Virus record (IMG/VR): IMGVR_UViG_3300045988_067475
Span: 1 to 39,645 of that record
Direction: 5' to 3' (one strand)
Source of the DNA: a virus
DNA: 39,645 nucleotides
Numbering within the stretch: position 1 is the first letter of the stretch; each line of letters begins with the position of its first letter. This document shows positions 2,745 through 30,300 of the stretch, one piece after another. A program made the position numbers and the translations under genes. The notes under the pieces were generated by a model, which was given only the letters and a program-made list of their open reading frames with translations, was not told the origin of the DNA and did not search any database.

Positions 2745-3815
2745 TCAGTTCTGACCAACCGCCACGCCAGACCAATACATGCCGGACTTCGTCGCGACAG
2801 CCTTGATGGTATCGCCCGTTGCAAGCGTCGGCTTGCTGGACGCCGAATACGTTAATGCGGTATCGCTGAAACGCGGGTCGCTGCCGTCCGTGGTGTACTT
2901 GATGACCGCGTCGGTCGTGTCCGAAGTGATCGTTGCAACATTCGTTGCAATCACGATCGCGGGCGTTGCCGCAACGGTAGACGCCGAGCAGCCGACATAA
3001 ATACCGTCCGCTCTCGTGGGCTTCACGAATGCGTCGAACATCACGCGGCCTTCCACCAGATCACCGGACAGGCCGGGCGGGTCGGAGTGGATCTTGTAGT
3101 CGTTCAGCTTCATCGGCGAGATCGCCGCATCCTTCAGGACGATCATGAAATACACATCCGACGGGAAATAGCTCTTCGGTACCTTCTTGACGGGCATACC
3201 GTCAAACTCGCCCACAACGCCATTGACAAGTGCCTTCGTGCCGATGCCCTCGAGCTTGACATACTCGTCGCAAAGCTTCAGCGCCTTATAAAGGTCGTTG
3301 CGGATATACAGCGTTCTGCCGTTCTGCGGGACGAACATATCGTCGAGCGCGCAGGTCGCATCCATGATGATACCGGCAATCGTGCTCTTCGTCGGCGCCG
3401 CCGTCAGCGCAACGTGCTGGCCTGCGTTCACTGCCCAGGTCTTGAAACGGTGCTTGTCGATGTACGGGGTCACAACTTCGCGCATCTCGCGTTTCAGGCT
3501 CGTTGCAGCCGTCTTGATGTTGAACTGCTCTTTTGCATTGCCCTTGTCGATGGTGTAGGTGAACGCCTTGTCCTGCTTCATCTGGAACTCATAGATGCTG
3601 TCTGCAAGCTCCTGCGGCGTGCCGTAACGGTTCGAGCCGGAACGGGTGTAGTCGTTGAGCGGGGACGTGTGCGCTTCATAGACCTTCACGGTCTTCACGC
3701 CGACGAACTCCATATCGAGATCCTTCGAGAAGGAACTCTGCGTCAGAGAATCCTGATAAAATCTTTCCTGTACCTTATCCGAGTACTTTTCTGCAAGGTT
3801 GATAGTTTTAGACAT
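2745..3815 (-). CDS. Major capsid protein (356 aa) with a C-terminal Ig/CHB_HEX_C-like decoration domain
   Basis: Track ORF with a GGAGGT RBS, immediately after the scaffold gene. The N-terminus MSKTINLAEKYSDKVQERFYQDS... is typical of Firmicutes-phage capsid proteins. The C-terminus has an IKYTTDGSDP motif. Confidence 0.8.
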   Translation of the reverse strand: MSKTINLAEKYSDKVQERFYQDSLTQSSFSKDLDMEFVGVKTVKVYEAHTSPLNDYTRSGSNRYGTPQELADSIYEFQMKQDKAFTYTIDKGNAKEQFNIKTAATSLKREMREVVTPYIDKHRFKTWAVNAGQHVALTAAPTKSTIAGIIMDATCALDDMFVPQNGRTLYIRNDLYKALKLCDEYVKLEGIGTKALVNGVVGEFDGMPVKKVPKSYFPSDVYFMIVLKDAAISPMKLNDYKIHSDPPGLSGDLVEGRVMFDAFVKPTRADGIYVGCSASTVAATPAIVIATNVATITSDTTDAVIKYTTDGSDPRFSDTALTYSASSKPTLATGDTIKAVATKSGMYWSGVAVGQN

Positions 3816-3828
3816 TCTTTACCTCCTG

Positions 3829-4686
3829 TCAATCATCGCTCAACAGGTATTCGAGGAACGGGTCCTTCGCCGTCTCCTTTCCTTCTGTTTTCGCGGAACC
3901 AATACTTTTCTGTTTGTTTTTCTCATTCTGTTTGAGTGCGTTGATGCTCTCCTGGAGTTTGCGGTTACTCTCGGCGAGCTGCCGGTTCTCGTACCGGCCG
4001 TAGGCAGAAACTAACGTTTCGCCGTTTCTGACATCGTCCCAGACTTCCTTCGGGATCGTGTTTGGGTCAACATCCTTGTAGAGCTTCAAAAACCGTTCGA
4101 TGTCCTGCTGCCGGGCAAGCTCCTGCCCCTGCTGCGCCTGCTGCTTTTCCGCATCCGCCTTTTCCGTTCTGGAAAGCCGCTGCTCTGCGTCCTCCCGTAA
4201 AACGCGCTCGTGTGCCGCGTCCCGGCTCAAGCCCTGCGAGACATAAGCGTTTTCCCGCACCGACTGCAAAAATGTGTTCCTGTCTGTGCCGGATTTCTGA
4301 GCTGCTGCGTCCAGTAGCCCGATAATCGCCTCGTTGTCCTGCTTGAACTTCAAAAGCTCTGCGTTTTCCTGCTGTAAGTGGTCTCTCTGCTCTAAAATGC
4401 GGTCATGGTTCAGCCCCTTTTGGGCAAGCTCCGTGACCTCCTGGCGGTTCACCTTTCGGATTTCCTTGTTGAACTTGAGATCAAACAGCTCTTCTTCCTT
4501 CTGTTCCTTTGTGGGTTCCGCTTCCGGTTGCCCCGCCGGTTCTTCTGGTTCTTCCGAAGGCTCCTGTTCTTCTTCGTTCGCTTCGGCTACTTCTTCGCTG
4601 GTTTCCTCTTCGGTCTGGTTGCCGTCGTCTTCGGAAACAATATCGCTCAGATCTACGCCGAATTCTTCATCCATAAACTCGTTCAT
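3829..4686 (-). CDS. Scaffolding protein (285 aa)
   Basis: Highly acidic N-terminus (EEETSEEVAEANEEEQEPSEEPEEP), then long charged coiled-coil-like sequence. Located directly upstream of the capsid gene. AGGAGGAAG RBS. Confidence 0.75.
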   Translation of the reverse strand: MNEFMDEEFGVDLSDIVSEDDGNQTEEETSEEVAEANEEEQEPSEEPEEPAGQPEAEPTKEQKEEELFDLKFNKEIRKVNRQEVTELAQKGLNHDRILEQRDHLQQENAELLKFKQDNEAIIGLLDAAAQKSGTDRNTFLQSVRENAYVSQGLSRDAAHERVLREDAEQRLSRTEKADAEKQQAQQGQELARQQDIERFLKLYKDVDPNTIPKEVWDDVRNGETLVSAYGRYENRQLAESNRKLQESINALKQNEKNKQKSIGSAKTEGKETAKDPFLEYLLSDD

Positions 4687-4749
4687 TTTCTTCCTCCTGT
4701 TTTTGGCTCTGGTAGGCCATATTCACGGCTCTGGTAGGCCGCTGTTTAC

Positions 4750-5157
4750 TCAAAATCCGTAATACGGGGTAATTTCCTCCCATACGGAGGGCTTCTTTGC
4801 CGCGAGCGTCGCGACAAGCTCGGAATACCGTTCGTTGAAAAAACTCGCCATCGAATCGTTTTCGCCCAAAAGAAGGTGCGCTGCCAATCCGTAGGGCATA
4901 ATCCCCTGCGCAATGACATCGTCGAGGCCAATCTCGTCCGTAAAGTCCTTGATCTCCGGGCACACTGCCCGTTTCCCGTCCTCTCCTGTCCGGAACGTGT
5001 CGGAATACGGGAAAAGCTCGTGCCGCAGAACGTTCAGAATGCTGATCGTCCGCAGCCTGTATTCCTGCGTATCTTGCGTTGCTGTCGCACCGCTTGACTC
5101 GTTCTGCTCATCCATCAAGTGGATCGCTCGGGAAAATACCCAGTCTGGCGTTGTCAT
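4750..5157 (-). CDS. Hypothetical morphogenesis protein (135 aa)
   Basis: Track ORF with a TAGGAGGA RBS, between terL and the scaffold gene. No motif recognised. Confidence 0.6.
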   Translation of the reverse strand: MTTPDWVFSRAIHLMDEQNESSGATATQDTQEYRLRTISILNVLRHELFPYSDTFRTGEDGKRAVCPEIKDFTDEIGLDDVIAQGIMPYGLAAHLLLGENDSMASFFNERYSELVATLAAKKPSVWEEITPYYGF

Positions 5158-5166
5158 AGAATCCTC

Positions 5167-6546
5167 CTAGAAATTCAGGTAGCTGCTGTCCGCTTCCCCT
5201 CCGGTCATGTAATCGCCGTAGCTTTCTTCGTGCTCTTCTTCGTCTGCAATGACCTGCTGTTCCGGCTTGAGCGTCCGAAGCTGCGCGTAATACCGCAGCG
5301 CATCCGGCGCGTGGGTTATATCGTGCGGTTCATTGGCACAGTCCGACGGGTTCTTGTCGTCGTGCTGAATCGCCATCAGATCGTCGATAATCCCCTTGCA
5401 GGTGTTGAAAACCAGAAGCCCCGGCTTTCCATCTGCCATGGGCTTTAGCAGTTCCTTAACTGCCATCCAGCCCGCCACACGGGAATTATTCGCTTTGACA
5501 ACCGGAAGTCCGCTTTCTGCGAACAGCTGTGCCATTGTCTTGCCAGTGTCCTTTAATGTCGACCACATATCCGGCGGCGCAATCGTATACTCTACTCGTT
5601 CGCCCGGCGGCGTCGACACAATCGCTGCATTCGCCGCCTGCGAAACAATCAGCCTCGATTCGTTGTACTCCCGGTACAGATACGCCCTTCCGTTATAGTC
5701 CACGGCAATCCAGAGGCACGCGAACATATCGAGGCCGTAGTCGAATGCCCGGTATTTCGTCCAGCCTGTTGGAATTGCAAACGGCTGAATGACATGCGTC
5801 TTGATTGTAAACTCCGGGAAGTACCCGCCGGACAGTGCATCCCAGTCACCAAACCGGTGTGCCCTTCTGACATCCTCCGGCAGCAGATTCAATGCGTTTA
5901 CATAATTCGGAGATCCTTTCAGCAGATCGACGTTATCATCGACCGTCGCTTTCAGAAACAGATAATCGTCCGGATTCTCTTCCGGCAGAAAATCTCTTGT
6001 GACAAAGATTCTCTTCACCCACTGGTGCCCGACGCCGCCGGGGTTACATGTCAGATACACTCGTTTCGGGAAAGGCGTTGCACCACGGCAGCATGCCGCG
6101 ATACCGCGAAATTCCTGTTCGGTGAACTGCGTCGCCTCTTCAATGAAAATCCAGTCGTATTCCTGGCCCTGATACTTGCCCGTAACCGCCGAGCCGTACC
6201 CGTCCATGTTGCCGAATTTGATGCTGGACCCATTCACAAACGTCAGAAGATGCTTTTGCACGTTGTATGTAGCAAGACCGTCCGGAATCAATTTCAGAAT
6301 CGGGTCTATGACGGAGTTTTCCAGATGTTCATATCTCCGTCTGATAACCAGAACCCGAAGCCCCGGATACTCAATGCACCCGCCGACCGGTTTTCTCTGC
6401 GTACACCACGACTTTCCGCCGCCTCTCGCGCCGCCGTAGCACGTGTATTTCACCCGGCTTTCAAAGAACCGCCTCTGCGGCTCGCTGTTCGGGCAGCCAA
6501 GATTCAGCGTGATCGCTCCGCCCTTTGCTGTTTGCTTTCTCGCCAT
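5167..6546 (-). CDS. terL: Terminase large subunit (459 aa)
   Basis: Walker A is YGGARGGGKS and Walker B is YDWIFIEEA. It has a TCNPGG coupling motif and a C-terminal RNase-H-like nuclease region (FDYGLDMFACLWIAVDYNGRAYLY). GGAGGG RBS. Confidence 0.95.
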   Translation of the reverse strand: MARKQTAKGGAITLNLGCPNSEPQRRFFESRVKYTCYGGARGGGKSWCTQRKPVGGCIEYPGLRVLVIRRRYEHLENSVIDPILKLIPDGLATYNVQKHLLTFVNGSSIKFGNMDGYGSAVTGKYQGQEYDWIFIEEATQFTEQEFRGIAACCRGATPFPKRVYLTCNPGGVGHQWVKRIFVTRDFLPEENPDDYLFLKATVDDNVDLLKGSPNYVNALNLLPEDVRRAHRFGDWDALSGGYFPEFTIKTHVIQPFAIPTGWTKYRAFDYGLDMFACLWIAVDYNGRAYLYREYNESRLIVSQAANAAIVSTPPGERVEYTIAPPDMWSTLKDTGKTMAQLFAESGLPVVKANNSRVAGWMAVKELLKPMADGKPGLLVFNTCKGIIDDLMAIQHDDKNPSDCANEPHDITHAPDALRYYAQLRTLKPEQQVIADEEEHEESYGDYMTGGEADSSYLNF

Positions 6547-15705: not shown

Positions 15706-15941
15706 TCCTTCCTCCTGACCTGCACCGTCACTTCCGCCTCCCAGCATTCCGGTTCCCGGACGGTGATAATCTTCCGCCGCCCGTCCTCCGGGTCCTTGAC
15801 GCTGACGAGGTAAAACGTCTTGTTCTGCATCTTCTGCGGATACTTCTGCGCCCTTAAAGGCGTTCTGAGCTTCGGCATGAGCCGTTGGTAAATCGGCAGC
15901 GGCTCCGGTATGACAATCCAGACCTTGACTCCCTGCTTCAT
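15702..15941 (-). CDS. Hypothetical protein (79 aa)
   Basis: Track ORF with ATGA coupling to the upstream replication gene. Confidence 0.55.
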   Translation of the reverse strand: MKQGVKVWIVIPEPLPIYQRLMPKLRTPLRAQKYPQKMQNKTFYLVSVKDPEDGRRKIITVREPECWEAEVTVQVRRKE

Positions 15942-16663
15942 CGTGCTTCCTCCCCCAACATCCGCTGAATCGCTGCTTTCTGGAAATCAGACAGCTCGTC
16001 CCCGTGGTGCTGCACGTTGTAGCCCGGCTTCTTCCCCGGCTGTGACGGCGCGCCCTTCTCATGTTCTTTCGATTCCCACGTCAAAAACTTCTGCTTCCAG
16101 TTCCGTACTGGGTCGCCCTTCCCGTCGACCCAATTTCCGGCAGAATAATAGTCAAAAAATTTCTGTGCCAGATTCGGGACTCCACGCTCCTTCGCGTATG
16201 CGGAAACATCTTCCAACGTAGGTGGTATAAATTTCTTACGTTTCTTCTCAGGAATAGAACTACTCTCTTTTCTATTTCCATTTCCATTTCCATTTCCTAA
16301 AGGTAATACCGTGGTATTACCGCAAGCACTACCATCAGCCATACCAGAGTTATCATTTTCTTTATTCCAACGCTTGCTGATGTTCTCCCTTTGGCGCTGG
16401 CAATGCTTGTCCCGTTTTTCGATTTCAAGCTCCATCCGGCGGTTGAAGTACTTGCCGTCCTCATCCTTCTGAAACTTGCTCATAACCTCGTCTGACGGCT
16501 TTTTGACAGCCCGTATGATTTCCTGCATCGTCATATGCCCGCGCTCTCTTTGGAGGCACAGGAGCGTGATATACTGTCCACGCTCCCGCATATCCATCAA
16601 GGCACAGCCGGATAGGAAATCCGACGTGTAAAACAAGACGGCAGGGTCTTTGTTGTTTGCCAT
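15938..16663 (-). CDS. DUF1376-type replisome organiser / replication initiation protein (241 aa)
   Basis: VLFYTSDFLSGCALMDMRERGQYITLLCLQRERG matches the DUF1376 signature. The C-terminal segment PTLEDVSAYAKERGVPNLAQKFFDYYSAGNWVDGKG is typical of phage replisome organisers. Confidence 0.65.
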   Translation of the reverse strand: MANNKDPAVLFYTSDFLSGCALMDMRERGQYITLLCLQRERGHMTMQEIIRAVKKPSDEVMSKFQKDEDGKYFNRRMELEIEKRDKHCQRQRENISKRWNKENDNSGMADGSACGNTTVLPLGNGNGNGNRKESSSIPEKKRKKFIPPTLEDVSAYAKERGVPNLAQKFFDYYSAGNWVDGKGDPVRNWKQKFLTWESKEHEKGAPSQPGKKPGYNVQHHGDELSDFQKAAIQRMLGEEAR

Positions 16664-16675
16664 CCCGCCACCGCC

Positions 16676-17242
16676 TTAGAACGGCAACGGCTCGCCGTCA
16701 TCTTCGTCCATCATCGTAAACCCGCCAAACCCCTGCGTACCGCTCTCAGGCGCTGCGAATCTCTGCGCCGTCGTAGGAGCCGCAAGCAGCTTCTTTGCAG
16801 GAACCGTAAAGTCTCCGTCCCGAATGGCCTGTACAGATCGCGCGGCGGCCACATAGAGGCGCGTACCGGTAGACCCGTCGTTTTTCTGGTATTCTTCTTC
16901 GCCCAGCACCACGCCAAATCGCTTGCCTCTCAGCCCGTCCAGCATGGCTTCGTCAAACCGGTATCCGGGATTGGATTCTTCAACCGCCGTCTTAAACGCC
17001 TTGAAGAACGGAAGCGCCTTCGGCTTGTACGAACGAATCAGAATAATCGGCCAGAACCCGGCGCGCTTGTATGTATCGCGGTTGTTGCCCATGTACTCGC
17101 CTTCTGCGAAGTCCCACGCAATCTTGATGTACTCTTTTTCCTCTACGTCCTGTACCTGGCAGATTTTCGCGATGTACGCCCCGGGCGTCGGATTGTCAAA
17201 TTCCTGTGCTTCCTGAACTTCGTCCCAATTAACCTTCTGCAT
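16676..17242 (-). CDS. DUF669-like single-strand DNA-binding protein (188 aa)
   Basis: It sits downstream of the AAA_24-type ATPase, the canonical pairing. The C-terminus MMDEDDGEPLPF mimics the SSB acidic tip. Confidence 0.6.
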   Translation of the reverse strand: MQKVNWDEVQEAQEFDNPTPGAYIAKICQVQDVEEKEYIKIAWDFAEGEYMGNNRDTYKRAGFWPIILIRSYKPKALPFFKAFKTAVEESNPGYRFDEAMLDGLRGKRFGVVLGEEEYQKNDGSTGTRLYVAAARSVQAIRDGDFTVPAKKLLAAPTTAQRFAAPESGTQGFGGFTMMDEDDGEPLPF

Positions 17243-17876
17243 TTTCTGTTTCCTCCTTTTTGTTCTTCGGGTTCAAGCCCCAATATGTGCGAATCGTCTC
17301 ATCGACCATTTTCAGATCGTTGTCGATCTGCTCTGGGAACATCTCCATCGGGCTTTTCGCCGTGGAATACCCTTCTGACTGCGTAACAAAATAGTGCTTG
17401 TCCTTCTCCGCCCGGCAGAGCAGCACAATCGAAAACAAACCTTCTACCGTAAGCTTTTCGTCTAGCATCTTGCCAATCGTCTTCGCTTTCAGCGTCCCGT
17501 CCTGCAAGGTCTCCGTATGATGCAGGAAATAAACGATGCAGTCCGGCGGCGTCTGCGTAATGACGAACTGAATCAAATTCCGGAAATTGATCGCAATATC
17601 CGTGAATTTGTTGTAGCCGGTTTCCTTCGCCCGGTCGAAGAACTCAAAAGCAAGCAGATATTGACTGTCGTCAATTGCGTAAGACTTGAACTGTCCGGCC
17701 TTGAGCGTGTTCAGGATCTCACCGTAGCTCGAACCATTGATAACCGGAAGCTTCTTCCGGAACGGCAGAGGCTTCGACGCTACATTAAATACGCCGATCT
17801 CTTTTGCCGTAAAGTTGCGTAGCGAAGTCGACTTCCCGCTCCCGCTCTCACCTAAAATCAAAACTGGAATTCCCAT
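17229..17876 (-). CDS. AAA (AAA_24 / Sak4-like) ATPase (215 aa)
   Basis: An N-terminal Walker A motif (LILGESGSGKST) sits right at the start. The size and neighbours are typical of Sak4-type recombination ATPases. Confidence 0.7.
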   Translation of the reverse strand: MGIPVLILGESGSGKSTSLRNFTAKEIGVFNVASKPLPFRKKLPVINGSSYGEILNTLKAGQFKSYAIDDSQYLLAFEFFDRAKETGYNKFTDIAINFRNLIQFVITQTPPDCIVYFLHHTETLQDGTLKAKTIGKMLDEKLTVEGLFSIVLLCRAEKDKHYFVTQSEGYSTAKSPMEMFPEQIDNDLKMVDETIRTYWGLNPKNKKEETENAEG

Positions 17877-18481: not shown

Positions 18482-18655
18482 CTACCTCCACGCTTCTGTA
18501 AACACCGTCCAAAACACGATATCGCGATACGTGACCTTCTGTTCCTGCGGCGCTTCTTGCGGATTTGCGCATGTGTAGCGGAACCACTCCCGCCATCTGT
18601 TGCACATGCAATTCTCCCCGCGCCCTTTCGTGCAGCTCTCACAAGGATGCTCCAT
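18482..18655 (-). CDS. Hypothetical small Cys-rich protein (57 aa), below the track cutoff
   Basis: My translation is MEHPCESCTKGRGENCMCNRWREWFRYTCANPQEAPQEQKVTYRDIVFWTVFTEAWR. The ATG lies 1 nt after the upstream stop, with a GGGGG RBS. Confidence 0.45.
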   Translation of the reverse strand: MEHPCESCTKGRGENCMCNRWREWFRYTCANPQEAPQEQKVTYRDIVFWTVFTEAWR

Positions 18656-18656
18656 A

Positions 18657-18920
18657 TCATGCCCCCGTCAGTATCGCGCCGACGAAGAAGCACGCCGCCG
18701 CGCCGCCAAGCGTGACCGCCGCCCGGAACAGGCCGAAGCCCAGCATAACCGCCGTACCGCCCAGCAGCATACACGCCACAGAGAAGCAGGCCGTTTCCGC
18801 GATCTTCATCAGGCTCTTTTGCCTCTTGCGAAGCCGTACGATCTCGTCCCACCTTTCGCCAAGCTCGCGCTCCCGCGCCGCCCGGTGGTTTAACTCCGTG
18901 ATAATCTCAACGTCACTCAT
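18657..18920 (-). CDS. Small two-TM membrane protein (87 aa)
   Basis: Internal ATG 18920 follows TAAGGAGGA. It has a charged N-terminus, then the hydrophobic stretches CFSVACMLLGGTAVMLGFGLF and LGGAAACFFVGAILTGA. Confidence 0.6.
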   Translation of the reverse strand: MSDVEIITELNHRAARERELGERWDEIVRLRKRQKSLMKIAETACFSVACMLLGGTAVMLGFGLFRAAVTLGGAAACFFVGAILTGA

Positions 18921-19652
18921 TTTCTCATCCTCCTTAAATAATCTTCCTTGCCGAGTGGGGCTTTCCTGTTTGCTGCATAGCCATTGCGTCTCTGAGCCCT
19001 TCGCAGCCCTGCCGCCGCTACGCATGGCTGAGCTTTACATTGCCCTTGCCGTGCCGATCAGTGCCCATCTCTGCCCTTGCCTGTCGAAGCAAAGCGTGCG
19101 TTACTACGCCGTTGCCAATCCTTGCTTTACTTCGCCTTTGCCGCGCCAGTCCAAGCCGCGCCGTTCGTAGCCCTCGCGTCGCTTATCCTTGCCTTTCCGT
19201 CGCAAACATAGCATCCCATGCCGCCGCGAAGCCATCCTATTCTTTGCCTTTGCGAGGCACATCAAATCTCTACAGTGCCGTTGCCACGAATTGCATACCA
19301 AAGCCTTTGCTTACCCAGCATTGCACTACCAAGCCTTTGCTATGCGGAGCAGTCAATGCCACGCCATCGCTACGCTTTGCCGCACATTGCCGTTGCCGTT
19401 CAATGCCTGTCTTCGCCGATCGCTGCCATGCTTCTCCCTCGCGACACTCTGCGTTTCATCGCTTATCCGTTGCTCCTCTGCGCCTTTCGCGGCTTCTCCT
19501 CTGCGCTCGTAGCTTATCGATGCCTTCGCTGTGAATCGTGTTGCCCCGTTGCGGCTCATTGCACTGCTTTGCTTTTCCGTTGCTGTGCCGCTCAGAGCCC
19601 CGCGCGGCTACGCCTTTGCTTGTCGTTGCCAAACCCAGCCGTGCCCTTGCAC
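18921..19652 (-). repeat. 732-bp non-coding tract with strong strand asymmetry and a dispersed one-orientation TTGC (sense GCAA) motif
   Basis: By my scan there are stops in all three sense frames (24 in total, mixed types). My hand count of 18961-19650 on the plus strand is A 94, G 151, T 196, C 249. TTGC occurs 28 times and GCAA 2 times on the plus strand. A local 30-nt duplication lies at 19289-19348. Confidence 0.6.
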
Positions 19653-20237
19653 TTACTCGAGCACTTCGTAGGTGAACCGTCCCTTTCCGGAGTTCCGCCA
19701 CTGGCCAATGCCTCTGAGCCGTCCGTAATCCAGCCATTCCAAGACGATATCCTTGTGCGCCTTTTCGTCCAGCATCGTAATTTCAAACTCGATCGTGCTG
19801 CCCGCCGGAATCTCCTCCGAGTTCGCAAGCGCCACACGCTCGCCCTGCGGGGTCGGTGCTCTCAAAGGCCGCTGGCATTCGCTGATCTCGCCGCTGACCT
19901 GAATTGGGATGTGCCGCGGCTCGACGAAAATCAAACCGTCGATGATCTTCTTGTAAGCTTTCAAGCTCGAGCTTTTCGTGCTCTTGACTCTTGTCAGCAT
20001 ACCGCAAGCGTCCTTGAAGAACCCCTTGATCTGGTAGTCATACAGAACCGGGCACCCGTTCGCGCGGGGGAAAACCGTCATGCCCTTGTCTGCCACAACG
20101 TCCGCACCCAAAGCCGCGATCTCGTCTTCGATGGTGGAAGCGTCCGGCGCTTTCGACGCGATGAAATCCCGCGCCACATTCTCGTTGCTCGGCCACGTGC
20201 CAAGCACAGGCTCCAAAAAGGTTAATCTGACTTTCAT
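19653..20237 (-). CDS. Hypothetical protein (194 aa) carrying RAMP-like (Cas7/Csm3-type) motifs
   Basis: ATG 20237 lies 9 nt after AGGAAGA. GCPVLYDYQIKGFFKDACGML resembles the RAMP P.IPGSSIKGALR motif. The C-terminal GIGQWRNSGKGRFTY fits the glycine-rich loop GhGxxxxxGxGR. The family assignment was not verified. Confidence 0.3.
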   Translation of the reverse strand: MKVRLTFLEPVLGTWPSNENVARDFIASKAPDASTIEDEIAALGADVVADKGMTVFPRANGCPVLYDYQIKGFFKDACGMLTRVKSTKSSSLKAYKKIIDGLIFVEPRHIPIQVSGEISECQRPLRAPTPQGERVALANSEEIPAGSTIEFEITMLDEKAHKDIVLEWLDYGRLRGIGQWRNSGKGRFTYEVLE

Positions 20238-20258
20238 TCGTTTCAATCTTCCTAATAT

Positions 20259-20477
20259 TTACGGCTGGTGCCGTCTCCTTCGTTCCTTCCTCTGCGCTTC
20301 CCACTGATCAAGCACAGAGATGATGACCGGTCTGAGCTTCCGGGCGCTCGCCCGTCCGTTTAGTACATTGCTGATGTGGCTCTGCGTCACGTTGCAGCAG
20401 TCTGCAAGATCGGCCTGCGTCATGCCCAGATCATGCAGCCTTGCCTTCACATAAGCGCCAAAGCTTCTTTTGCTCAA
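20259..20477 (-). CDS. XRE-family HTH protein (72 aa, TTG start)
   Basis: LGMTQADLADCCNVTQSHISNVLNG is a classic HTH. AAGGGAGG RBS. Confidence 0.7.
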   Translation of the reverse strand: MSKRSFGAYVKARLHDLGMTQADLADCCNVTQSHISNVLNGRASARKLRPVIISVLDQWEAQRKERRRRHQP

Positions 20478-20490
20478 TCTCTCGCCTCCC

Positions 20491-20730
20491 TTACCACGGG
20501 TAACAGATCATTTCCCGCACGTCTGCGATCGGGACCGACAAACACCGCATCAGCTTGAGTGTTTGCGGGAAGTACGCCGTTGGGCTTTTATAGAGCTTCA
20601 GTAGTGTCGGCTTGCTCATACCCGCATACTCACACGCCTTTTGGGTGCTTACCCCCTGCGCCTTGATTTCGCCCTGAATTCTTGCGGACAGGTTGTAATC
20701 AAGCGTCCGCTTTACCGCCGCCTTCGGCAT
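20491..20730 (-). CDS. HTH protein (79 aa)
   Basis: Internal ATG 20730 follows GGAGGTGAAG. The HTH-like segment is GVSTQKACEYAGMSKPTLLKLYK. Confidence 0.6.
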   Translation of the reverse strand: MPKAAVKRTLDYNLSARIQGEIKAQGVSTQKACEYAGMSKPTLLKLYKSPTAYFPQTLKLMRCLSVPIADVREMICYPW

Positions 20731-20923
20731 GTTCTTCACCTCCCGCAAATAGTTCGTCGATCGTGCATTTGTAGAGCCTTGCGAGCCCTTTGTGATGTTT
20801 TCGTGCGATTCTGGTATCTCCAGTTTCCCATCTGTGAACCGCCGCTTGGCTGACGTGCATCTTTTTCGCAACTTCCGCCTGCGTAAGACCTGCATTCAGC
20901 CGGAGTTCTTTCAAATTCAACAA
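20699..20923 (-). CDS. Cro-like XRE-family HTH regulator (74 aa from TTG 20923; the track ORF starts at ATG 20944)
   Basis: LKELRLNAGLTQAEVAKKMHVSQAAVHRWETG is the HTH. An AGGGGG RBS lies 6 nt before TTG 20923. It is the first gene of the early operon, divergent from the cI-like gene. Confidence 0.75.
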   Translation of the reverse strand: MLNLKELRLNAGLTQAEVAKKMHVSQAAVHRWETGDTRIARKHHKGLARLYKCTIDELFAGGEEHAEGGGKADA

Positions 20924-20962
20924 TTCTCGCCCCCTGTTCCTCATAAATATGAGTAGTTTTCA

Positions 20963-21371: not shown

Positions 21372-21401
21372 TTTGGTACGCTCATATAATAACTCATAAA
21401 C

Positions 21402-21440
21402 TTCGGTTTGTAAATATGCAAAACCGAATAAATTCGGTTT
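21402..21440. promoter_or_regulatory. Operator candidates upstream of the cI-like gene
   Basis: Half-site TTCGGTTT lies at 21402-21409. The 20-bp palindrome AAACCGAAT-AA-ATTCGGTTT lies at 21421-21440. Both overlap -10/-35-like boxes (TTTGTA...TAAATT, TATAAA). Confidence 0.6.
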
Positions 21441-21471: not shown

Positions 21472-21825
21472 TTGGATATTGTGCTGAGTCGCATTCTCTC
21501 CCTCATTCCGAAAAACGAAAGCGGGAAATACAAGCACGGCTCAAAAGCCGACTTTGCCCGCAGTATTGGGTACGACAGCGGCGACATCGTTTCCATGTGG
21601 GAAAATGGCTCAAGCGTTTCTTATAAAAAGAAGCTTCACGAGATCGCCGCAAAATATGGCGTCTCTGTCGCCTGGCTCAAGGGCGAGACAGACGAAAAAA
21701 ATGCCCCCGTCCCGGAGGACGAGAGGAAGTTAAACGAGGATCTTATTTCACGTCTGGTTTCTTTGACACCCGAAGAGATGCAGAAGGTTGACGCTTTTGT
21801 GCAAGGGCTCTTAGCAAATCGTTGA
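21472..21825 (+). CDS. cI-like XRE-family repressor (117 aa, TTG start)
   Basis: A GGAGG RBS lies 7 nt upstream. KADFARSIGYDSGDIVSMWENG is the HTH. It is divergent from the cro-like gene and heads the integrase-side unit. Confidence 0.75.
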   Translation: MDIVLSRILSLIPKNESGKYKHGSKADFARSIGYDSGDIVSMWENGSSVSYKKKLHEIAAKYGVSVAWLKGETDEKNAPVPEDERKLNEDLISRLVSLTPEEMQKVDAFVQGLLANR

Positions 21826-27341: not shown

Positions 27342-30300
27342 TTACCCGGCCATTCGGACGGGGATTTTTGTCCCGTTCTTCTCCGCGATGATCTCCCCGC
27401 GAACCAGTTTCCAAGTCCACCCGTCCGGCGCGCCCCACGTCTTCATGACGCCGTTCTGCATCATCTTATACGCAAGCTGCCCCGCCTTCGAGCCGACCGT
27501 GTATCCCTCGCCCGGCTCGTCGTCAAAGCCGTTTCTTCCGAGGACGGCCCGCGCCCGAAGCTGCCGCCCGTCCTTTGTCCGGACGATCACGTCTCCATTT
27601 TCTCCGACCGACCATACAGACCCGTCCTTCGCTTCATACCGGTCTTTCCGCTTGAGAAGCAGGCTCAGATACTCCCGGTATCCATCGTCCGTCCGGATGT
27701 CGTAGGTTTCCTCCTGTGGCTCTTGCTCTGCGGAGGATACCCCATCCCAGCCGACGTTCTTCTGGATTTTCTTCCTCGTGCTCTCTGCGTAATCCTGAAC
27801 GCTGACGGCAATCGCGTATTTCTGCTCCGCTGTCATGTCCGTTTGGTTGAGATAATCGCAGAACCAAGCCCATTTCGTTCCGAAGCCCTGTGACTTCCGC
27901 TCGTCGGCATTCGGTGCTTCCTTGAACTGCGCCCATGCGTCGATGTAGTCGGCCATTGCCGCGCCCGTGTCCATGACGCTGTGCGTCCATCCGGTCTGCG
28001 CTCTCGCCGAAAGCTCGCTCTTCGCCGCCGCGACGCTGATATTGCCCTCCCGGAGCTCCGAGGAAAGATACCGGAGGTTCTTCACCGAGTCCGCGTAGAA
28101 CCCGGCGCGTACTGCGTCCTTCTGGTCTTCCGTCCAGTCCCGGCGCTCGAGCCAGGAATCAAACTGATCTTCCGCGCTGCGCACAACGTTTCCGTCCATG
28201 TCGTAGACCGTTTCGATGTTCTTGAGCGCCGCCTTTGCTTCCTGATACATGGCTTCCGTGGCTCCTGCCGCCATGCCGAACCGCTCGTAGGCCTTCTGCG
28301 CCTGACTCTTTTTCTCTGCATCGCTGCTCCATCCGCTGAAAGTTCCGCCGCCAGTCCCGCTGGAAGCGTAGCTGCCGGAACTGGAAGTGGCACTTCCGGT
28401 CGACGTGACCGCTGTACCGCCGGGGTTTCCACCGTCTGTAGCGGGCGCAACATACGCCGCGCCAAGCTTGTTTGCGATTTTCTTCTTGGTCTTCTCAGAC
28501 ATGGAGCGGTCTGTGCTGATCGCGATCGCGTACTTCTGTTCTTTGGTCAGTTCCGTGTTCTTGTTCAGCTCATTGCAGAACCATTCCCACTTGCTGTCAA
28601 AGCCCATCTTGTCGCGTTCTTCCGCTGTCGGCGCGTTCTCAAACGTCGCCATGCTGGAAATGTAATCGCGCATCTGAACGCCGGTGCTGCTGACATTGTG
28701 CGTCCATCCGTACTGGTATGTGGGGGATAGTGCTTGCTTCGCCTCTCCGACGGTAATGTTTCCGATGTCAAGGTCTTCCACAAGTTTGTTATAGGTATCT
28801 ACCGTATCCCCGTAGAAGCCCATGCGAAGCGCCTTTTTCTGTTCTTCGGTCAGATTCTTCGAATCCAGCCAATCGTCATACTGATTCTGTACGCTACTGG
28901 TCACAATGCCGTCAATGTCTTTGACTTCGTGCATTCTCGCGTGCGCGCTGGACGCTTCCAGCATCATCTGCGGCGTAACGCCTGCGGCCTTTCCGAACTT
29001 CTGATACGCATCGACTTCCCGGGCAGACAGAACCGCAATTGCTGTCCGGTCGTTCAGCTCATTGTCGTTGTATGCCTGCAAAAGCTCGTCCCGGTTCGTG
29101 CCGTCTTTATTCGCATCCTTGTATTTGGCCTTGACTGCCTCGTCGAGGAAATACTCTGCAAGCGTCTTCTGGTTTTTCCCTTCAAGCTTCTGCTGCTCTT
29201 CGGAAAGTTTGTATCCAAATTTCGCCTTTTCCGCATTCTGGAAATACTCTGCCGCCTTTTCCCGCGCAGATTCTTTCAGATCGTCGGATACCCCTGCATA
29301 CGCAAGCGAATCATAGATCTTCTGCACGTTCCCAAGCTTGTTTTTCGCTTCGTCGCTGATGTACTTTTCACTCTCAACGGCTCGCCCGAGAATCGCGTTC
29401 ACGATCTCCTCGTCGGATTTCCCCTTTAGTCCGTTGATCCATTTCTCATCGCTTTCATAGCCAACGCCCGCCGCTTCTTTTCCAAGCGCGTTCGCGTACT
29501 CCTGCGAAAGACTCATTGCCTTAGACTTTACATTATCCGGAAGCCCCTTGTAGATATCGCTATCCAACATATTCTTCCGGAGATTATAGTCCGTCTGGCC
29601 TCTCGTTTCTGTATAGTTTGCGTATTGTTCAGAGGTCAGTTTGACATTCTCCCCATCTACGGCAATGCTCTTCGGCGGCTTCGTATAGAAGTTGGAGTAT
29701 TCCGCGTTCACATCATGCAGCCGCGCGATTTCTTCTTCGACTGCATCTGTCTTTTGCTTGGAAGGATATACCGGCGTGACCGCTTTGAAAACGCCCTCGC
29801 CAAAGCCGTTTGCTCCGTTTCCTTCGACCGGAACGCCCCAGTTTCCGTAGGTAACGGCCATATCCTCCCGAAGCCCCGGGAGCTTCTTCTGTACACCCTG
29901 TACGGCAGACTGCACCGGACTCCAAGCGCCGTCCGGTTCCAGATACGTACTTCTCTGGTTCTTGTCAAGACTGGCCGCTACACGCCCCACGATCGTCGGC
30001 ACGTACTGCCCGACATAGTTTCCGATAATCTGTACGCCCATCTTGGTCAGTAGCTCGCCGGTTCCCGCGTTGTCGGAATTCTGAATCGTCGTCAGGATGC
30101 TGTCCATGCCGCTGAGCATCGACTGCTCAAACACCGGGTCTGTGATCTTGGACAGCGCATCGAGAAAATCTTCAAACGAGATCGGTTCGTCACCGTTTCG
30201 CGCGTTCTGCGCCGCCTCCCAGATTTGCGCGCCCGTCAATAGCCCTGTCCCGGCCAGCGTCAGGCTGTCAATGGGAATATACGTATCTCCAACCAGAATG

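What the first reader, a model, noticed from the sequence alone, without database searches (positions are those of the whole stretch)
18921..19652. A 732-bp gene-free, strand-asymmetric tract saturated with a one-orientation TTGC/GCAA motif lies in the middle of the early operon
This is the largest gap in an otherwise gapless operon. No terminator separates it from the upstream gene, so it should be transcribed as part of the early mRNA.

What the sequence shows:
- By my scan all three sense frames contain stops: 24 in total, mixing TAA, TAG and TGA. The long plus-strand ORFs here exist only because that strand is A-poor.
- My hand count for 18961-19650 on the plus strand is A 94, G 151, T 196, C 249. 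The transcribed-sense strand is therefore about 64% purine and only about 14% T.
- TTGC occurs 28 times on the plus strand and its complement GCAA only twice. About 4-5 copies would be expected from base composition alone.
- The usual context is CC(K)TTGCY, which reads RGCAA(V)GG in sense. Spacings are often near 10-11 or 30-31 nt.
- There is a local 30-nt duplication: CATTGCAyACCAAAGCCTTTGCT at 19289-19348.
- The motifs have no conserved repeat/spacer structure, so this is not a CRISPR array.

Hypotheses:
- An iteron-type or R-loop-prone replication origin, since the non-template strand is G-rich.
- A long RNA that is bound or coated by the adjacent RAMP-motif protein.
- An RNA or DNA decoy or sponge for a host factor.
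Basis: seen in the sequence. Interest (0 to 1): 0.7.

Follow-up and report, generated by a model that had tools for sequence, protein, structure and literature searches.

The report
Phage VIPR guide-RNA repeat array
The gene-free tract is an array of five-base repeats that most likely encodes guide RNAs for the small Cas7-like protein made by the gene just upstream, so the pair is a member of the phage RNA-guided DNA-silencing systems (VIPR) first described in 2026 preprints, here with an unusual 31-base unit structure.

Summary
Composition, stop counts and the one-orientation TTGC/GCAA excess all reproduce, and the excess survives dinucleotide-preserving shuffles (29 observed, 13.65 expected, 0 of 5000 shuffles reach it).

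GCAA is only the visible tip of a pentanucleotide repeat on the transcribed (minus) strand. The unit is N-G-(C/A)-N-N, with G at position 2 in 89% of units. Six pentamers plus one extra base form 31-nt units, joined at RGCAA-N-GGC.

The adjacent 194-aa protein folds as a minimal Cas7-type RAMP; the 50 best-ranked PDB fold matches are all CRISPR-Cas effector-complex entries. In 77 of 80 species-level genomes carrying a homologue, a same-strand period-5 G tract lies next to the gene. The tract sequence itself turns over completely between clades.

This matches VIPR systems (bioRxiv 10.64898/2026.04.26.720920 and .720927): a Vipr RAMP plus vrRNAs made of pentamer repeats. It departs from the characterised type II in four ways:
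- The first G of GGY is not conserved.
- There is no 3' tail.
- Units have six repeats.
- No conserved accessory gene was found.

No targets were found. The replication-origin and sponge ideas are not supported. Verdict: a new member of a recently described kind.

The parts
19653..20237 (-). vipr-like gene: a 194-aa minimal RAMP (Cas7-type fold) with the C-terminal G-loop GIGQWRNSGKGRF. The longest ORF starts at TTG 20246; the ATG-initiated 194-aa form matches most homologues.
   Evidence: - AF2 model: pLDDT 79, pTM 0.74.
- The 50 best-ranked Foldseek PDB matches are all CRISPR-Cas effector-complex entries (type VII, type III Csm/Cmr, type IV-A3). Best: 8z4j_J, E 1e-6, TM 0.55.
- The G-loop aligns to type VII Cas7 and to Csm4.
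- hhalign to SUSP1 Vipr: probability 77%, E 2e-5, end to end.
- More than 7,900 homologues, none with a Pfam domain.
- BFVD relative at 88% identity, named 'Cas system-associated RAMP superfamily protein'.
18951..19652 (-). Putative vrRNA array: about 135 pentamers of N-G-(C/A)-N-N, arranged mostly as 31-nt units (six pentamers plus one nt), about 16 units in all. It has no ORF and no predicted stable structure.
   Evidence: - Period-5 G autocorrelation.
- The period-5 power is unique to this stretch of the window.
- Pentamer parse.
- Substitution rates by repeat position.
- 31-nt unit logos in three clades.
- RNA fold z-score 0.14 against shuffles.
- 24 stops across the three sense frames.
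18987..19650 (-). Fifteen GCAA-N-GG unit junctions. The G of GCAA lies at window 19650, 19619, 19583, 19552, 19473, 19396, 19340, 19310, 19284, 19253, 19141, 19115, 19080, 19049 and 18987. These are putative unit boundaries or processing sites.
   Evidence: - Junction positions and spacings of 31, 36, 31, 79, 77, 56, 30, 26, 31, 112, 26, 35, 31 and 62.
- The junction motif is conserved in the close, mid and far clades.
- Very regular 31-nt units occur in L102.
19281..19340 (-). Two adjacent units, 73% identical, 30 nt apart.
   Evidence: the repeat finder family D2. L008 carries a whole-unit 31-nt insertion relative to its relatives.
21386..21414 (-). Sigma-70-like early promoter candidate (TTTACA-17-TATTAT), facing the cro-like gene, the HTH gene, vipr and the array.
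   Evidence: Consensus scan, 10 of 12 matches. No minus-strand terminator-like site lies between it and the tract. That it drives the array is an inference.
18657..18935 (-). Downstream neighbour: a 92-aa small membrane-type protein with a strong RBS (AAGGAGG) at the 3' edge of the tract. It is not a conserved partner of vipr.
   Evidence: ORF listed. Homologues are found only in the close clade. No family hits.
20259..20477 (-). Upstream neighbour: a 72-aa HTH protein (phrog_1468, 'transcriptional repressor'). It was considered as a vap-like accessory gene, but it is present next to vipr in only 3 of 80 related loci.

Best explanation
The tract and the gene upstream of it form one module, a VIPR-type RNA-guided system of a temperate phage of gut Clostridia.

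Proposed mechanism:
- The tract is transcribed with the early operon.
- Its RNA is a concatenated array of pentanucleotide repeats (N-G-M-N-N).
- The 194-aa Cas7-like protein (Vipr) polymerises on the RNA, one protomer per repeat.
- Each protomer sequesters the conserved G and the following C/A with its G-loop and thumb. The hypervariable bases are left exposed as a non-contiguous guide.
- By analogy with the characterised SUSP1 system, the filament then binds matching double-stranded DNA of competing phages and silences transcription.

In this clade the guide units appear to be six repeats long (31 nt with a one-base spacer), joined head to tail at RGCAA-N-GGC junctions without a structured 3' tail.

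Shown here:
- The repeat anatomy.
- The position-specific conservation.
- The RAMP fold.
- The gene-tract linkage.

Inferred from the preprints:
- Transcription, processing and protein binding.
- DNA targeting and the biological role.
For: 1. Protein.
- The AF2 model (pLDDT 79) shows an RRM core, a helical insertion, a flexible beta-hairpin 'thumb' (residues 119-143) and a C-terminal G-loop.
- The 50 best-ranked PDB fold matches are all CRISPR-Cas effector-complex entries.
- The G-loop aligns to type VII Cas7, Csm4 and SUSP1 Vipr.
- The W and R that contact G2 and Y3 in SUSP1 Vipr (W178, R179) correspond to W180 (invariant) and R181 (conserved in at least 90% of sequences) in this family.

2. 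Repeat.
- G recurs every 5 nt. In the pooled logo of related tracts it is 82% at +5 from a GC, and 96% when the next GC is at +10.
- Between homologous tracts at 70-85% identity, the mismatch rate is 3.0% at G, 9.0% at the next base, and 17-19% at the other three positions. This conserved-core, hypervariable-rest signature is what defines vrRNAs.

3. Linkage.
- All 80 IMG/VR relatives have a GCAA-rich, purine-rich tract directly downstream.
- 77 of 80 species-representative genomes with a homologue at about 54-71% identity (one, L082, at 99%) have a strong same-strand period-5 tract downstream or upstream of the gene.
- No 11-mer of the window tract survives in clades whose protein is 83-92% identical to the window's.

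4. The 31-nt unit and its junction are conserved in three clades.

5. The RNA is no more structured than shuffles (z 0.14). There is no ORF, no Rfam family and no CRISPR array or cas genes. The context is a temperate phage early region.

6. Natural control in L102.
- One prophage carries this family with N-G-M arrays, plus a SUSP1-type Vipr (hhalign probability 98%) with canonical GGY-NN arrays.
- The SUSP1-type proteins keep H17 and an acidic G-loop residue, which contact G1. This family has an invariant Q at that position and no H17 equivalent. That fits its loss of G1 conservation.

7. The preprint reports variant consensus repeats (NNNGG, YNNNG, NNNNG) and tail-less 'staggered' arrays in other VIPR types.
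Against: - Sequence homology to an experimentally characterised Vipr is weak. Profile-profile comparison gives 62% probability and covers only the C-terminal 44 columns.
- The canonical features of the characterised type II are absent: the GGY triplet, 9-16 repeats per vrRNA, and a conserved 3' tail or pseudoknot.
- No conserved accessory (vap) gene was found.
- No target was found under any tested pairing rule in the window or in 160 related loci; real guides scored the same as shuffled ones. One exact gapped scan of IMG/VR with a window guide also found nothing.
- A six-repeat guide read by the published NN rule would specify only 12 nt, which seems too little.
- There are no expression or binding data for this locus.
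- I could not check whether this clade is among the preprint's 667 classified systems, because the supplementary data are not held.
Confidence: 0.8

Rival explanations
1. Replication origin. The tract would be an iteron-type or transcription-dependent (R-loop) origin of the phage. The G-rich transcript would stay hybridised to the C-rich template and prime replication, or the repeated motif would bind an initiator.
For: - The tract lies in the early region upstream of recombination and replication genes: Sak4-like at 17229-17876 and a primosomal-like gene at 15938-16663.
- It shows strong strand asymmetry with a purine- and G-rich sense strand.
- The 31-nt super-period is close to three helical turns.
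- No terminator precedes it.
Against: - No iteron-length sequence is conserved. Only one to two bases per 5 nt are constrained and the rest are hypervariable.
- The sequence is fully replaced between clades.
- The tract co-varies in position with the RAMP gene (downstream or upstream of it). It stays directly downstream of vipr in all 80 IMG/VR relatives, although the genes beyond it differ between clades, as judged by homologues of the window's downstream genes.
- In L102 two arrays flank the RAMP gene.
- There are no inverted repeats and no AT-rich unwinding element in the tract.
Confidence: 0.05
2. Counter-defence decoy. The phage Cas7-like protein and the repeat RNA would sequester or poison a host factor. 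One possibility is aberrant complexes formed with host type III or type I CRISPR subunits, as with RNA anti-CRISPRs. Another is sponging of an RNA-binding protein. In neither case would anything be guided to DNA.
For: - The protein's closest solved folds are Csm3 and type VII Cas7.
- Phages are known to carry CRISPR-repeat mimics (my own knowledge of RNA anti-CRISPRs; not tested here).
- No target was found for the putative guides.
Against: - The tract has no CRISPR-repeat-like unit and no Rfam CRISPR direct-repeat match.
- Hypervariability concentrated at three of five positions, together with unit indels, is what a specificity-encoding guide shows. A decoy has to keep mimicking a fixed ligand.
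- The same architecture in SUSP1-type systems was shown to guide DNA binding.
Confidence: 0.07
3. The tract is a structured non-coding RNA, a decayed protein-coding gene, or a gene read in an alternative genetic code.
For: It is a large gene-free gap in a compact operon. Long ORFs appear on the antisense strand.
Against: - The fold energy equals that of shuffles (z 0.14).
- No Rfam match at E <= 1.
- 24 stops spread over the three sense frames (7, 10 and 7), so no frame is open.
- The first 750 nt downstream of vipr in all 80 IMG/VR relatives is the same GCAA-rich, purine-rich repeat tract rather than recognisable coding sequence.
- The periodicity is 5, not 3.
Confidence: 0.02

Closest known systems
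VIPR type II (Escherichia phage SUSP1 and Pseudomonas fulva prophage; bioRxiv 10.64898/2026.04.26.720920 and 10.64898/2026.04.26.720927)
   Same: - The host element is a phage.
- The protein is a single small (~195 aa) RAMP with an RRM core, thumb and G-loop (G-x-G-x-W-R...G-R-F).
- A long intergenic tract next to the gene holds tandem pentanucleotide repeats with a conserved G core and hypervariable remainder.
- There are no cas genes and no CRISPR array.
- I read the SUSP1 locus directly (L081: vipr 28474-29061, arrays 27500-28030) and saw the GGT-NN repeats.
   Different: - Repeat consensus: N-G-(C/A)-N-N instead of G-G-Y-N-N. The first G is as variable as the NN positions.
- Length: units of six repeats instead of 9-16.
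- Tail: no conserved 3' tail or pseudoknot.
- Arrangement: units are concatenated with a one-base spacer into arrays of about 0.5-0.75 kb, about 16 units in the window. SUSP1 has four separate vrRNAs of about 100 nt.
- G-loop: Q replaces the acidic residue that reads G1, and there is no H17 equivalent.
- No conserved vap gene was found.
- The protein families are barely alignable.
Other VIPR types with variant repeats (NNNGG, YNNNG, NNNNG) and 'staggered' arrays (same preprint, methods and the Fig. S17-S18 legends)
   Same: The preprint states that some types use YNNNG or NNNNG repeats. [quoted passage not shown] That matches the C/A-N-N-N-G repeat and the tail-less head-to-tail 31-nt units seen here.
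   Different: I could not see the figures or data tables. Whether this gut Clostridia clade, its six-repeat unit and its RGCAA-N-GGC junction are among the described types is therefore unknown.
Class 1 CRISPR effector backbone (Cas7/Csm3/Cmr4 filament on crRNA)
   Same: Same protein fold. The RNA-binding logic is also the same: thumb and G-loop, periodic base flipping, one protomer per fixed number of nucleotides.
   Different: - Periodicity is 5 nt rather than 6 nt.
- There is no repeat-spacer array, no Cas6/Cas5 handle, no large or small subunits, and no adaptation genes.
- The guide information is interleaved with the protein-binding bases rather than held in a contiguous spacer.
TRAP-type recognition of spaced triplets (Bacillus trp attenuation protein; from my own knowledge, not tested)
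   Same: A protein oligomer reads a short conserved element that recurs every 5-6 nt on an otherwise variable single-stranded RNA.
   Different: The fold is unrelated, the protein forms a closed 11-mer ring, and the role is regulatory rather than guiding. This is only a formal analogy.

Membership tests
VIPR (Vipr + vrRNA) | A small stand-alone RAMP protein (~20 kDa) with an RRM core, thumb and glycine-rich loop | tested here: met
   - 194 aa.
- The AF2 model has an RRM core, a beta-hairpin thumb and a G-loop.
- The 50 best-ranked PDB fold matches are all CRISPR-Cas effector-complex entries.
- The G-loop aligns to Cas7 and Csm4.
VIPR (Vipr + vrRNA) | Sequence homology to an experimentally characterised Vipr (SUSP1) | tested here: inconclusive
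   - Family profile against the SUSP1 protein: probability 77%, E 2e-5, colinear over 175 columns.
- Profile against profile: probability 62%, E 8e-5, over only the C-terminal 44 columns.
- The SUSP1-type protein of L102 does not match this family's profile.
VIPR (Vipr + vrRNA) | An adjacent non-coding tract of tandem pentanucleotide repeats with conserved core bases and hypervariable remaining bases | tested here: met
   - Period-5 G autocorrelation.
- Mismatch rates of 3% (G), 9% (next base) and 17-19% (other three positions).
- The linkage holds in 80 of 80 viral loci and 77 of 80 genomic loci.
VIPR (Vipr + vrRNA) | The canonical GGY/NN repeat consensus | tested here: not met
   Position 1 is G in only 37% of units and is as variable as the N positions. 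Position 3 is C 55%, A 28%. This fits the alternative YNNNG/NNNNG consensus that the preprint lists for other types.
VIPR (Vipr + vrRNA) | vrRNA architecture of 9-16 repeats followed by a conserved structured 3' tail (type II) | tested here: not met
   - The modal run is six repeats in three clades.
- No segment is conserved across clades.
- There is no excess structure.
- The preprint describes tail-less staggered arrays in other types.
VIPR (Vipr + vrRNA) | A phage or prophage context without a CRISPR array or other cas genes | tested here: met
   - The window is a temperate phage with integrase, cI-like and cro-like genes, terminase and portal.
- No Rfam CRISPR direct repeat.
- The relatives are IMG/VR viral contigs and prophages in Clostridia MAGs.
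VIPR (Vipr + vrRNA) | An associated accessory gene (vap) | tested here: inconclusive
   The upstream 72-aa HTH gene is next to vipr in only 3 of 80 loci, and the downstream small membrane protein only in the close clade. No conserved partner was found. Other flanking genes were not searched systematically.
VIPR (Vipr + vrRNA) | vrRNAs match natural DNA targets by the one-nucleotide-skip rule | tested here: inconclusive
   - No excess of matches over shuffled guides for dinucleotide or trinucleotide readings with target periods 2-5, in the window plus 160 loci.
- One exact IMG/VR scan with a window guide gave no hit.
- The databases and the exact-match tool are too limited to call this negative.
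VIPR (Vipr + vrRNA) | The RNA is expressed, processed and co-purifies with the protein | not testable with these tools
   This needs sRNA-seq and pull-down experiments.
CRISPR array | Near-identical direct repeats of 23-50 nt separated by unique spacers of similar length | tested here: not met
   The repeat finders give only degenerate families at 60-80% identity. The only conserved element is an 8-nt junction, and the interior keeps the 5-nt G period.
Iteron-type replication origin | Several copies of a conserved 12-22 bp initiator-binding sequence, usually with an AT-rich region, linked to the replication initiator gene | tested here: not met
   No conserved iteron-length sequence within the tract or between relatives. 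The tract is linked to the RAMP gene instead.

The most novel reading that the evidence does not exclude
This very abundant gut-Clostridia clade may be a distinct VIPR type that uses a different code from the published GGY/NN rule. Three features would define it:
- The protein fixes only G-(C/A), and three bases per repeat are programmable.
- Each guide is six repeats long. That equals one turn of the six-subunit Vipr filament seen in the SUSP1 binary complex.
- Guides are stored head to tail in long tail-less arrays that grow by unit duplication and are cut or delimited at RGCAA-N-GGC.

If so, the pairing geometry with DNA (the skip rule) and the processing mechanism would both be new.
Probability: 0.3. 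Interest if true: 0.7.

Novelty: new member of a known kind. Interest (0 to 1): 0.5.

Why it matters
VIPR systems were proposed in 2026 as an RNA-guided DNA-recognition mechanism older than CRISPR, with a non-contiguous code.

This locus shows that a related module is very common in temperate phages of human-gut Clostridia such as Oscillospiraceae, Faecalibacterium and Lachnospiraceae. More than 7,900 protein clusters were found.

It offers a natural variant in which one of the three protein-read bases has been released and the guide is shortened to six repeats. Two things follow:
- The variant could refine the rules of the code. The G-loop D-to-Q change is a directly testable determinant of G1 recognition.
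- It points to inter-phage warfare in the gut virome that could be decoded once the targets are found.

For annotation, such 'gene-free purine-rich gaps' next to a ~195-aa unannotated protein should be called vrRNA arrays. They should not be called origins or pseudogenes.

Tried and rejected
- Known RNA families: Rfam at gathering threshold over the window and at E <= 1 over 18600-20400 gave nothing, with no hammerhead between units. No tRNA or tmRNA.
- Structured RNA: fold energy z-score 0.14, so rejected.
- Pseudogene or recoded gene: rejected.
- CRISPR array: rejected.
- Target prediction:
  - Exact gapped 16-mers with skips of 0-3 gave only chance-level hits.
  - 18-nt gapped guides, scored by number of matching positions, were tested in two dinucleotide registers and as trinucleotides, with target periods 2-5, against the window plus 80 and then 160 loci. 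Real guides scored the same as shuffled ones. The few period-5 hits were unmasked homologous tracts.
  - Two exact IMG/VR scans gave no hits. One used a window run that I later realised spans a fused unit junction. The other was meant as a positive control, with a canonical 12-repeat GGY guide from L102.
  - Exact matching of 12-18 specified bases per unit cannot separate true hits from chance.
- I suspected that the clustering of contig ends downstream of vipr (30 of 80 loci) reflected array hypervariability. It does not. The breaks lie in a different downstream ORF with perfect 18- or 27-nt coding tandem repeats.
- The upstream HTH gene as vap: not conserved next to vipr.
- The phages collection holds only four unannotated gut phage records with the protein.
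- Sequence search of PDB gives only marginal G-loop hits. The fold search was needed.
Full report
**1.

The genes around the tract are on the minus strand. On the plus strand of 18961-19650 the counts are A 94, G 151, T 196 and C 249, exactly as reported, so the transcribed-sense strand is 64.5% purine and 13.6% T. TTGC occurs 29 times in 18921-19652 and GCAA twice. The three sense frames hold 7, 10 and 7 stops.

The shuffle mean is 13.65 (sd 2.9), and none of 5000 shuffles reaches 29. The extended context CC[GT]?TTGC occurs 17 times against 2.2 expected. Over the whole window TTGC is not enriched.

The 30-nt duplication is present, and the spacings of 10, 16 and 31 are real. The consensus scan finds no minus-strand terminator-like site between the upstream gene and the tract. 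The only minus-strand promoter-like site is the early promoter candidate at 21414-21386.

**2. Anatomy of the tract**

GCAA is only the most visible part of a five-base periodicity on the sense strand. The autocorrelation of G peaks at lags 5 (0.37) and 10 (0.27). It splits at 15/16 and 20/21, then recovers at 26, 31 and 36. That pattern is expected if six pentamers are followed by one extra base, giving a 31-nt super-period.

- Pentamer parse. A dynamic-programming parse gives pentamers N-G-(C/A)-N-N, with single inserted bases mostly in the context RGCAA-N-GGC. The 15 junctions are spaced 31, 36, 31, 79, 77, 56, 30, 26, 31, 112, 26, 35, 31 and 62 nt apart.
- Composition across 67 non-redundant related tracts. 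Position 2 is G in 89% of pentamers. Position 3 is C in 55% and A in 28%. Positions 1, 4 and 5 are mixed and A-rich.
- Location. On the minus strand the period-5 power is confined to about 18951-19650 of the window.
- Structure and families. The RNA is not predicted to be more structured than its shuffles (z 0.14). It matches no Rfam family even at E <= 1.

**3. The neighbouring protein**

The 194-aa product of 19653-20237 has no Pfam, PHROG or NCBIfam family, yet more than 7,900 homologous clusters exist in metagenomes.

An AlphaFold model built on 26 homologues has pLDDT 79 and pTM 0.74. It shows an RRM-like core, a helical insertion, a flexible beta-hairpin and a C-terminal glycine-rich loop, GIGQWRNSGKGRF.

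Foldseek against the PDB returns, as its 50 best-ranked matches, only CRISPR-Cas effector-complex entries: type VII, type III Csm and Cmr, and type IV-A3. The best is 8z4j_J at E 1e-6 and TM 0.55. Sequence profiles reach only the G-loop of type VII Cas7 and Csm4, at E about 0.1. A BFVD entry 88% identical had already been named 'Cas system-associated RAMP superfamily protein'.

**4. Relatives: the motif is conserved, the sequence is not**

All 80 IMG/VR loci that encode a homologue (69-99% identity) carry a purine-rich tract directly downstream, with 11-34 GCAA against 1-7 TTGC.

- Length variation. Among phages whose flanking genes are nearly identical, the tract ranges from 488 to about 750 nt. 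Indels come in multiples of the repeat: a 10-nt indel, and a 31-nt whole-unit insertion in L008.
- Sequence turnover. No 11-mer of the window's tract is shared with the clades whose protein is 83-92% or below 75% identical. Those clades nevertheless show the same autocorrelation pattern, the same modal run of six pentamers, and the same RGCAA-N-GGC junction.
- Position-specific substitution. Between homologous tract segments at 70-85% identity, the mismatch rate is 3.0% at the periodic G and 9.0% at the following base. It is 17-19% at the other three positions.
- Wider linkage. In one genome per species (GTDB), 80 loci with homologues were examined. All but L082 (99%) are about 54-71% identical to the window protein, and most are Oscillospiraceae, Faecalibacterium, Ruminococcaceae, Lachnospiraceae or other Clostridia. 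In 65 of the 78 with enough sequence, the period-5 tract is downstream. In most of the others it lies upstream on the same strand. In total, 77 of 80 loci have a strong signal on one side.

What is conserved is the repeat grammar and its linkage to the RAMP gene.

**5. Identification**

A full-text search for phage-encoded RAMP/Cas7 proteins returned two 2026 bioRxiv preprints from the same group.

The first is 10.64898/2026.04.26.720920. [quoted passage not shown]
- They are mostly phage-encoded.
- They pair one ~20-kDa ancestral RAMP (Vipr) with vrRNAs made of tandem pentanucleotide repeats.
- In each repeat GGY is conserved and NN is hypervariable.
- The NN dinucleotides pair with double-stranded DNA, skipping one target base per repeat.
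- Natural targets are competing phages, and binding represses transcription.

The second is 10.64898/2026.04.26.720927. It shows that one Vipr protomer binds one repeat. The G-loop and thumb sequester GGY and present NN. The RNA-only filament has six subunits per turn.

I read the reference locus in phage SUSP1 (KT454805). A 195-aa gene at 28474-29061 is flanked by intergenic regions that hold obvious GGT-NN runs followed by a hairpin tail.

The window's family profile aligns end to end with the SUSP1 protein (probability 77%, E 2e-5). With profiles on both sides, however, only the C-terminal strand-helix-G-loop region is significant (probability 62%, E 8e-5). Protein-level membership therefore rests mainly on fold, size, G-loop and context.

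**6. How it differs from the characterised type, and a structural rationale**

This tract departs from type II vrRNAs in four ways:
- The first G of GGY is not conserved.
- The third base is C or A rather than a pyrimidine.
- Runs are six repeats long rather than 9-16.
- There is no conserved tail.

The preprint states that other VIPR types use NNNGG, YNNNG or NNNNG repeats. [quoted passage not shown] The locus is therefore likely to fall within the described diversity. I could not verify that, because the supplementary tables are not held.

In SUSP1 Vipr, G1 is read by H17 and D177, G2 by R138 and W178, and Y3 by R179 among others. In the window's family the G-loop reads G-I-G-Q-W-R. W180 is invariant and R181 is conserved in at least 90% of sequences. 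The acidic residue is an invariant Q, and H17 falls in an alignment gap.

Locus L102 gives a natural control, because one prophage carries both kinds of module:
- A window-type gene flanked by very regular 31-nt-unit N-G-M arrays.
- A SUSP1-type Vipr (hhalign probability 98%, E 8e-14) that keeps the His and has Glu at the G-loop position, flanked by canonical GGY-NN runs.

The correlation between the G1-reading residues and G1 conservation is an inference from two families. It is directly testable.

**7. Mechanism proposed, with what is shown and what is inferred**

Shown here:
- The repeat grammar.
- The position-specific constraint.
- The RAMP fold.
- The gene-tract linkage.
- The absence of ORF, RNA structure and terminator.

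Inferred from the preprints:
- The tract is co-transcribed with vipr from the early promoter.
- It is bound by a Vipr filament at one protomer per pentamer.
- The filament uses the variable bases to recognise DNA of competing phages and represses them.

My own inferences:
- The functional unit is six repeats, perhaps one filament turn.
- Units are delimited at RGCAA-N-GGC.
- Arrays grow by unit duplication. The evidence is the two adjacent units at 19281-19340 that are 73% identical, and the 31-nt insertion in L008.

**8. What did not work**

I tried to find targets. Exact gapped 16-mers gave nothing beyond chance. Gapped 18-nt guides, scored by number of matching positions and read as dinucleotides or trinucleotides with target periods 2-5, scored no better than shuffled guides against the window plus 160 loci. 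Two exact scans of IMG/VR returned nothing. The first of these used a run that I later recognised as spanning a fused junction.

With six-repeat units, the published NN rule specifies only 12 bases. That is too few for exact-match scanning. It also raises the question of whether three bases per repeat are read in this type.

No conserved accessory gene was found.

**9. Rivals**

- An iteron or R-loop origin is not supported. Nothing of iteron length is conserved, the tract follows the RAMP gene rather than the replication genes, and it can lie on either side of that gene.
- A decoy or sponge would have to keep a fixed sequence, whereas three of every five bases are hypervariable.
- The pseudogene, recoded-gene and structured-RNA readings are excluded by the period of 5, the stops in every frame and the fold statistics.

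**10. Verdict**

This is a real and well-observed feature. It is best explained as the guide-RNA array of a VIPR-type system, with confidence 0.8. It belongs to a kind described only in 2026 preprints, so it is not new in kind. It is an abundant gut-phage clade whose repeat consensus and unit architecture differ from the experimentally characterised type and may imply a variant code.

Noticed in passing
L102:2560-5940 (MAG Eubacteriales JAZNPB010000108.1): One prophage carries two different VIPR-like modules side by side.
- Module 1 is a window-type RAMP (2992-3687) with 31-nt-unit N-G-M arrays on both sides. An ORF at 3467-4276 lies between the gene and the downstream array and was not characterised.
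- Module 2 is a SUSP1-type Vipr (4908-5585; hhalign probability 98% against the SUSP1 family). It has a canonical 12-repeat GGY-NN vrRNA upstream (4650-4710) and a GGY-NN array downstream (5590-5940).
   Followed up: partly
L015:5189-6271, with the same position in about 30 other IMG/VR loci (for example L019, L023, L029): In many relatives an extra ORF sits downstream of the array. In L015 and L017 it lies between the array and the small membrane-protein gene.
- It contains perfect coding tandem repeats of 27 nt (9-aa ATGDQGAAS-like) or 18 nt (GIEAGW-like).
- Thirty of 80 viral contigs end inside or near these repeats, so they break assemblies.
- This explains the clustering of contig ends downstream of vipr.
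- The window lacks this ORF, and its function is unknown.
   Followed up: partly
window:20259-21825 and the upstream flanks of L001-L080: The immunity region directly upstream of vipr is mosaic. It comprises a cI-like repressor (21472-21825, +), a cro-like HTH (20699-20944, -) and a 72-aa HTH (20259-20477, -). Only 3 of 80 relatives with near-identical vipr share these genes. The vipr-array module therefore recombines as a cassette next to different immunity regions.
   Followed up: partly
window:27342-34664 (-): A single 2,440-aa ORF in the structural region has no Pfam domain at E <= 1e-5. It is presumably a tail tape-measure or tail-fibre giant protein.
   Followed up: no
window:20491-20895 (-) and 20699-20944 (-): Two long minus-strand ORFs overlap in different frames across the cro-like region: one of 134 aa and one of 81 aa with an HTH. 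Both have homologues in L016 at 97-100% identity. Because they share the same DNA, this does not show which of them is translated.
   Followed up: no
window:17229-17876 (-) and 15938-16663 (-): Downstream of the module lie a Sak4-like single-strand annealing protein (phrog_2872, E 3e-67) and a primosomal-type protein (phrog_9327).
   Followed up: no
BFVD A0A8S5R426 (Siphoviridae sp. ctcMb1): A gut-virome protein 88% identical to the window's Vipr-like protein was already deposited under the name 'Cas system-associated RAMP superfamily protein'. The RAMP similarity had therefore been picked up by an annotation pipeline before the VIPR preprints.
   Followed up: no
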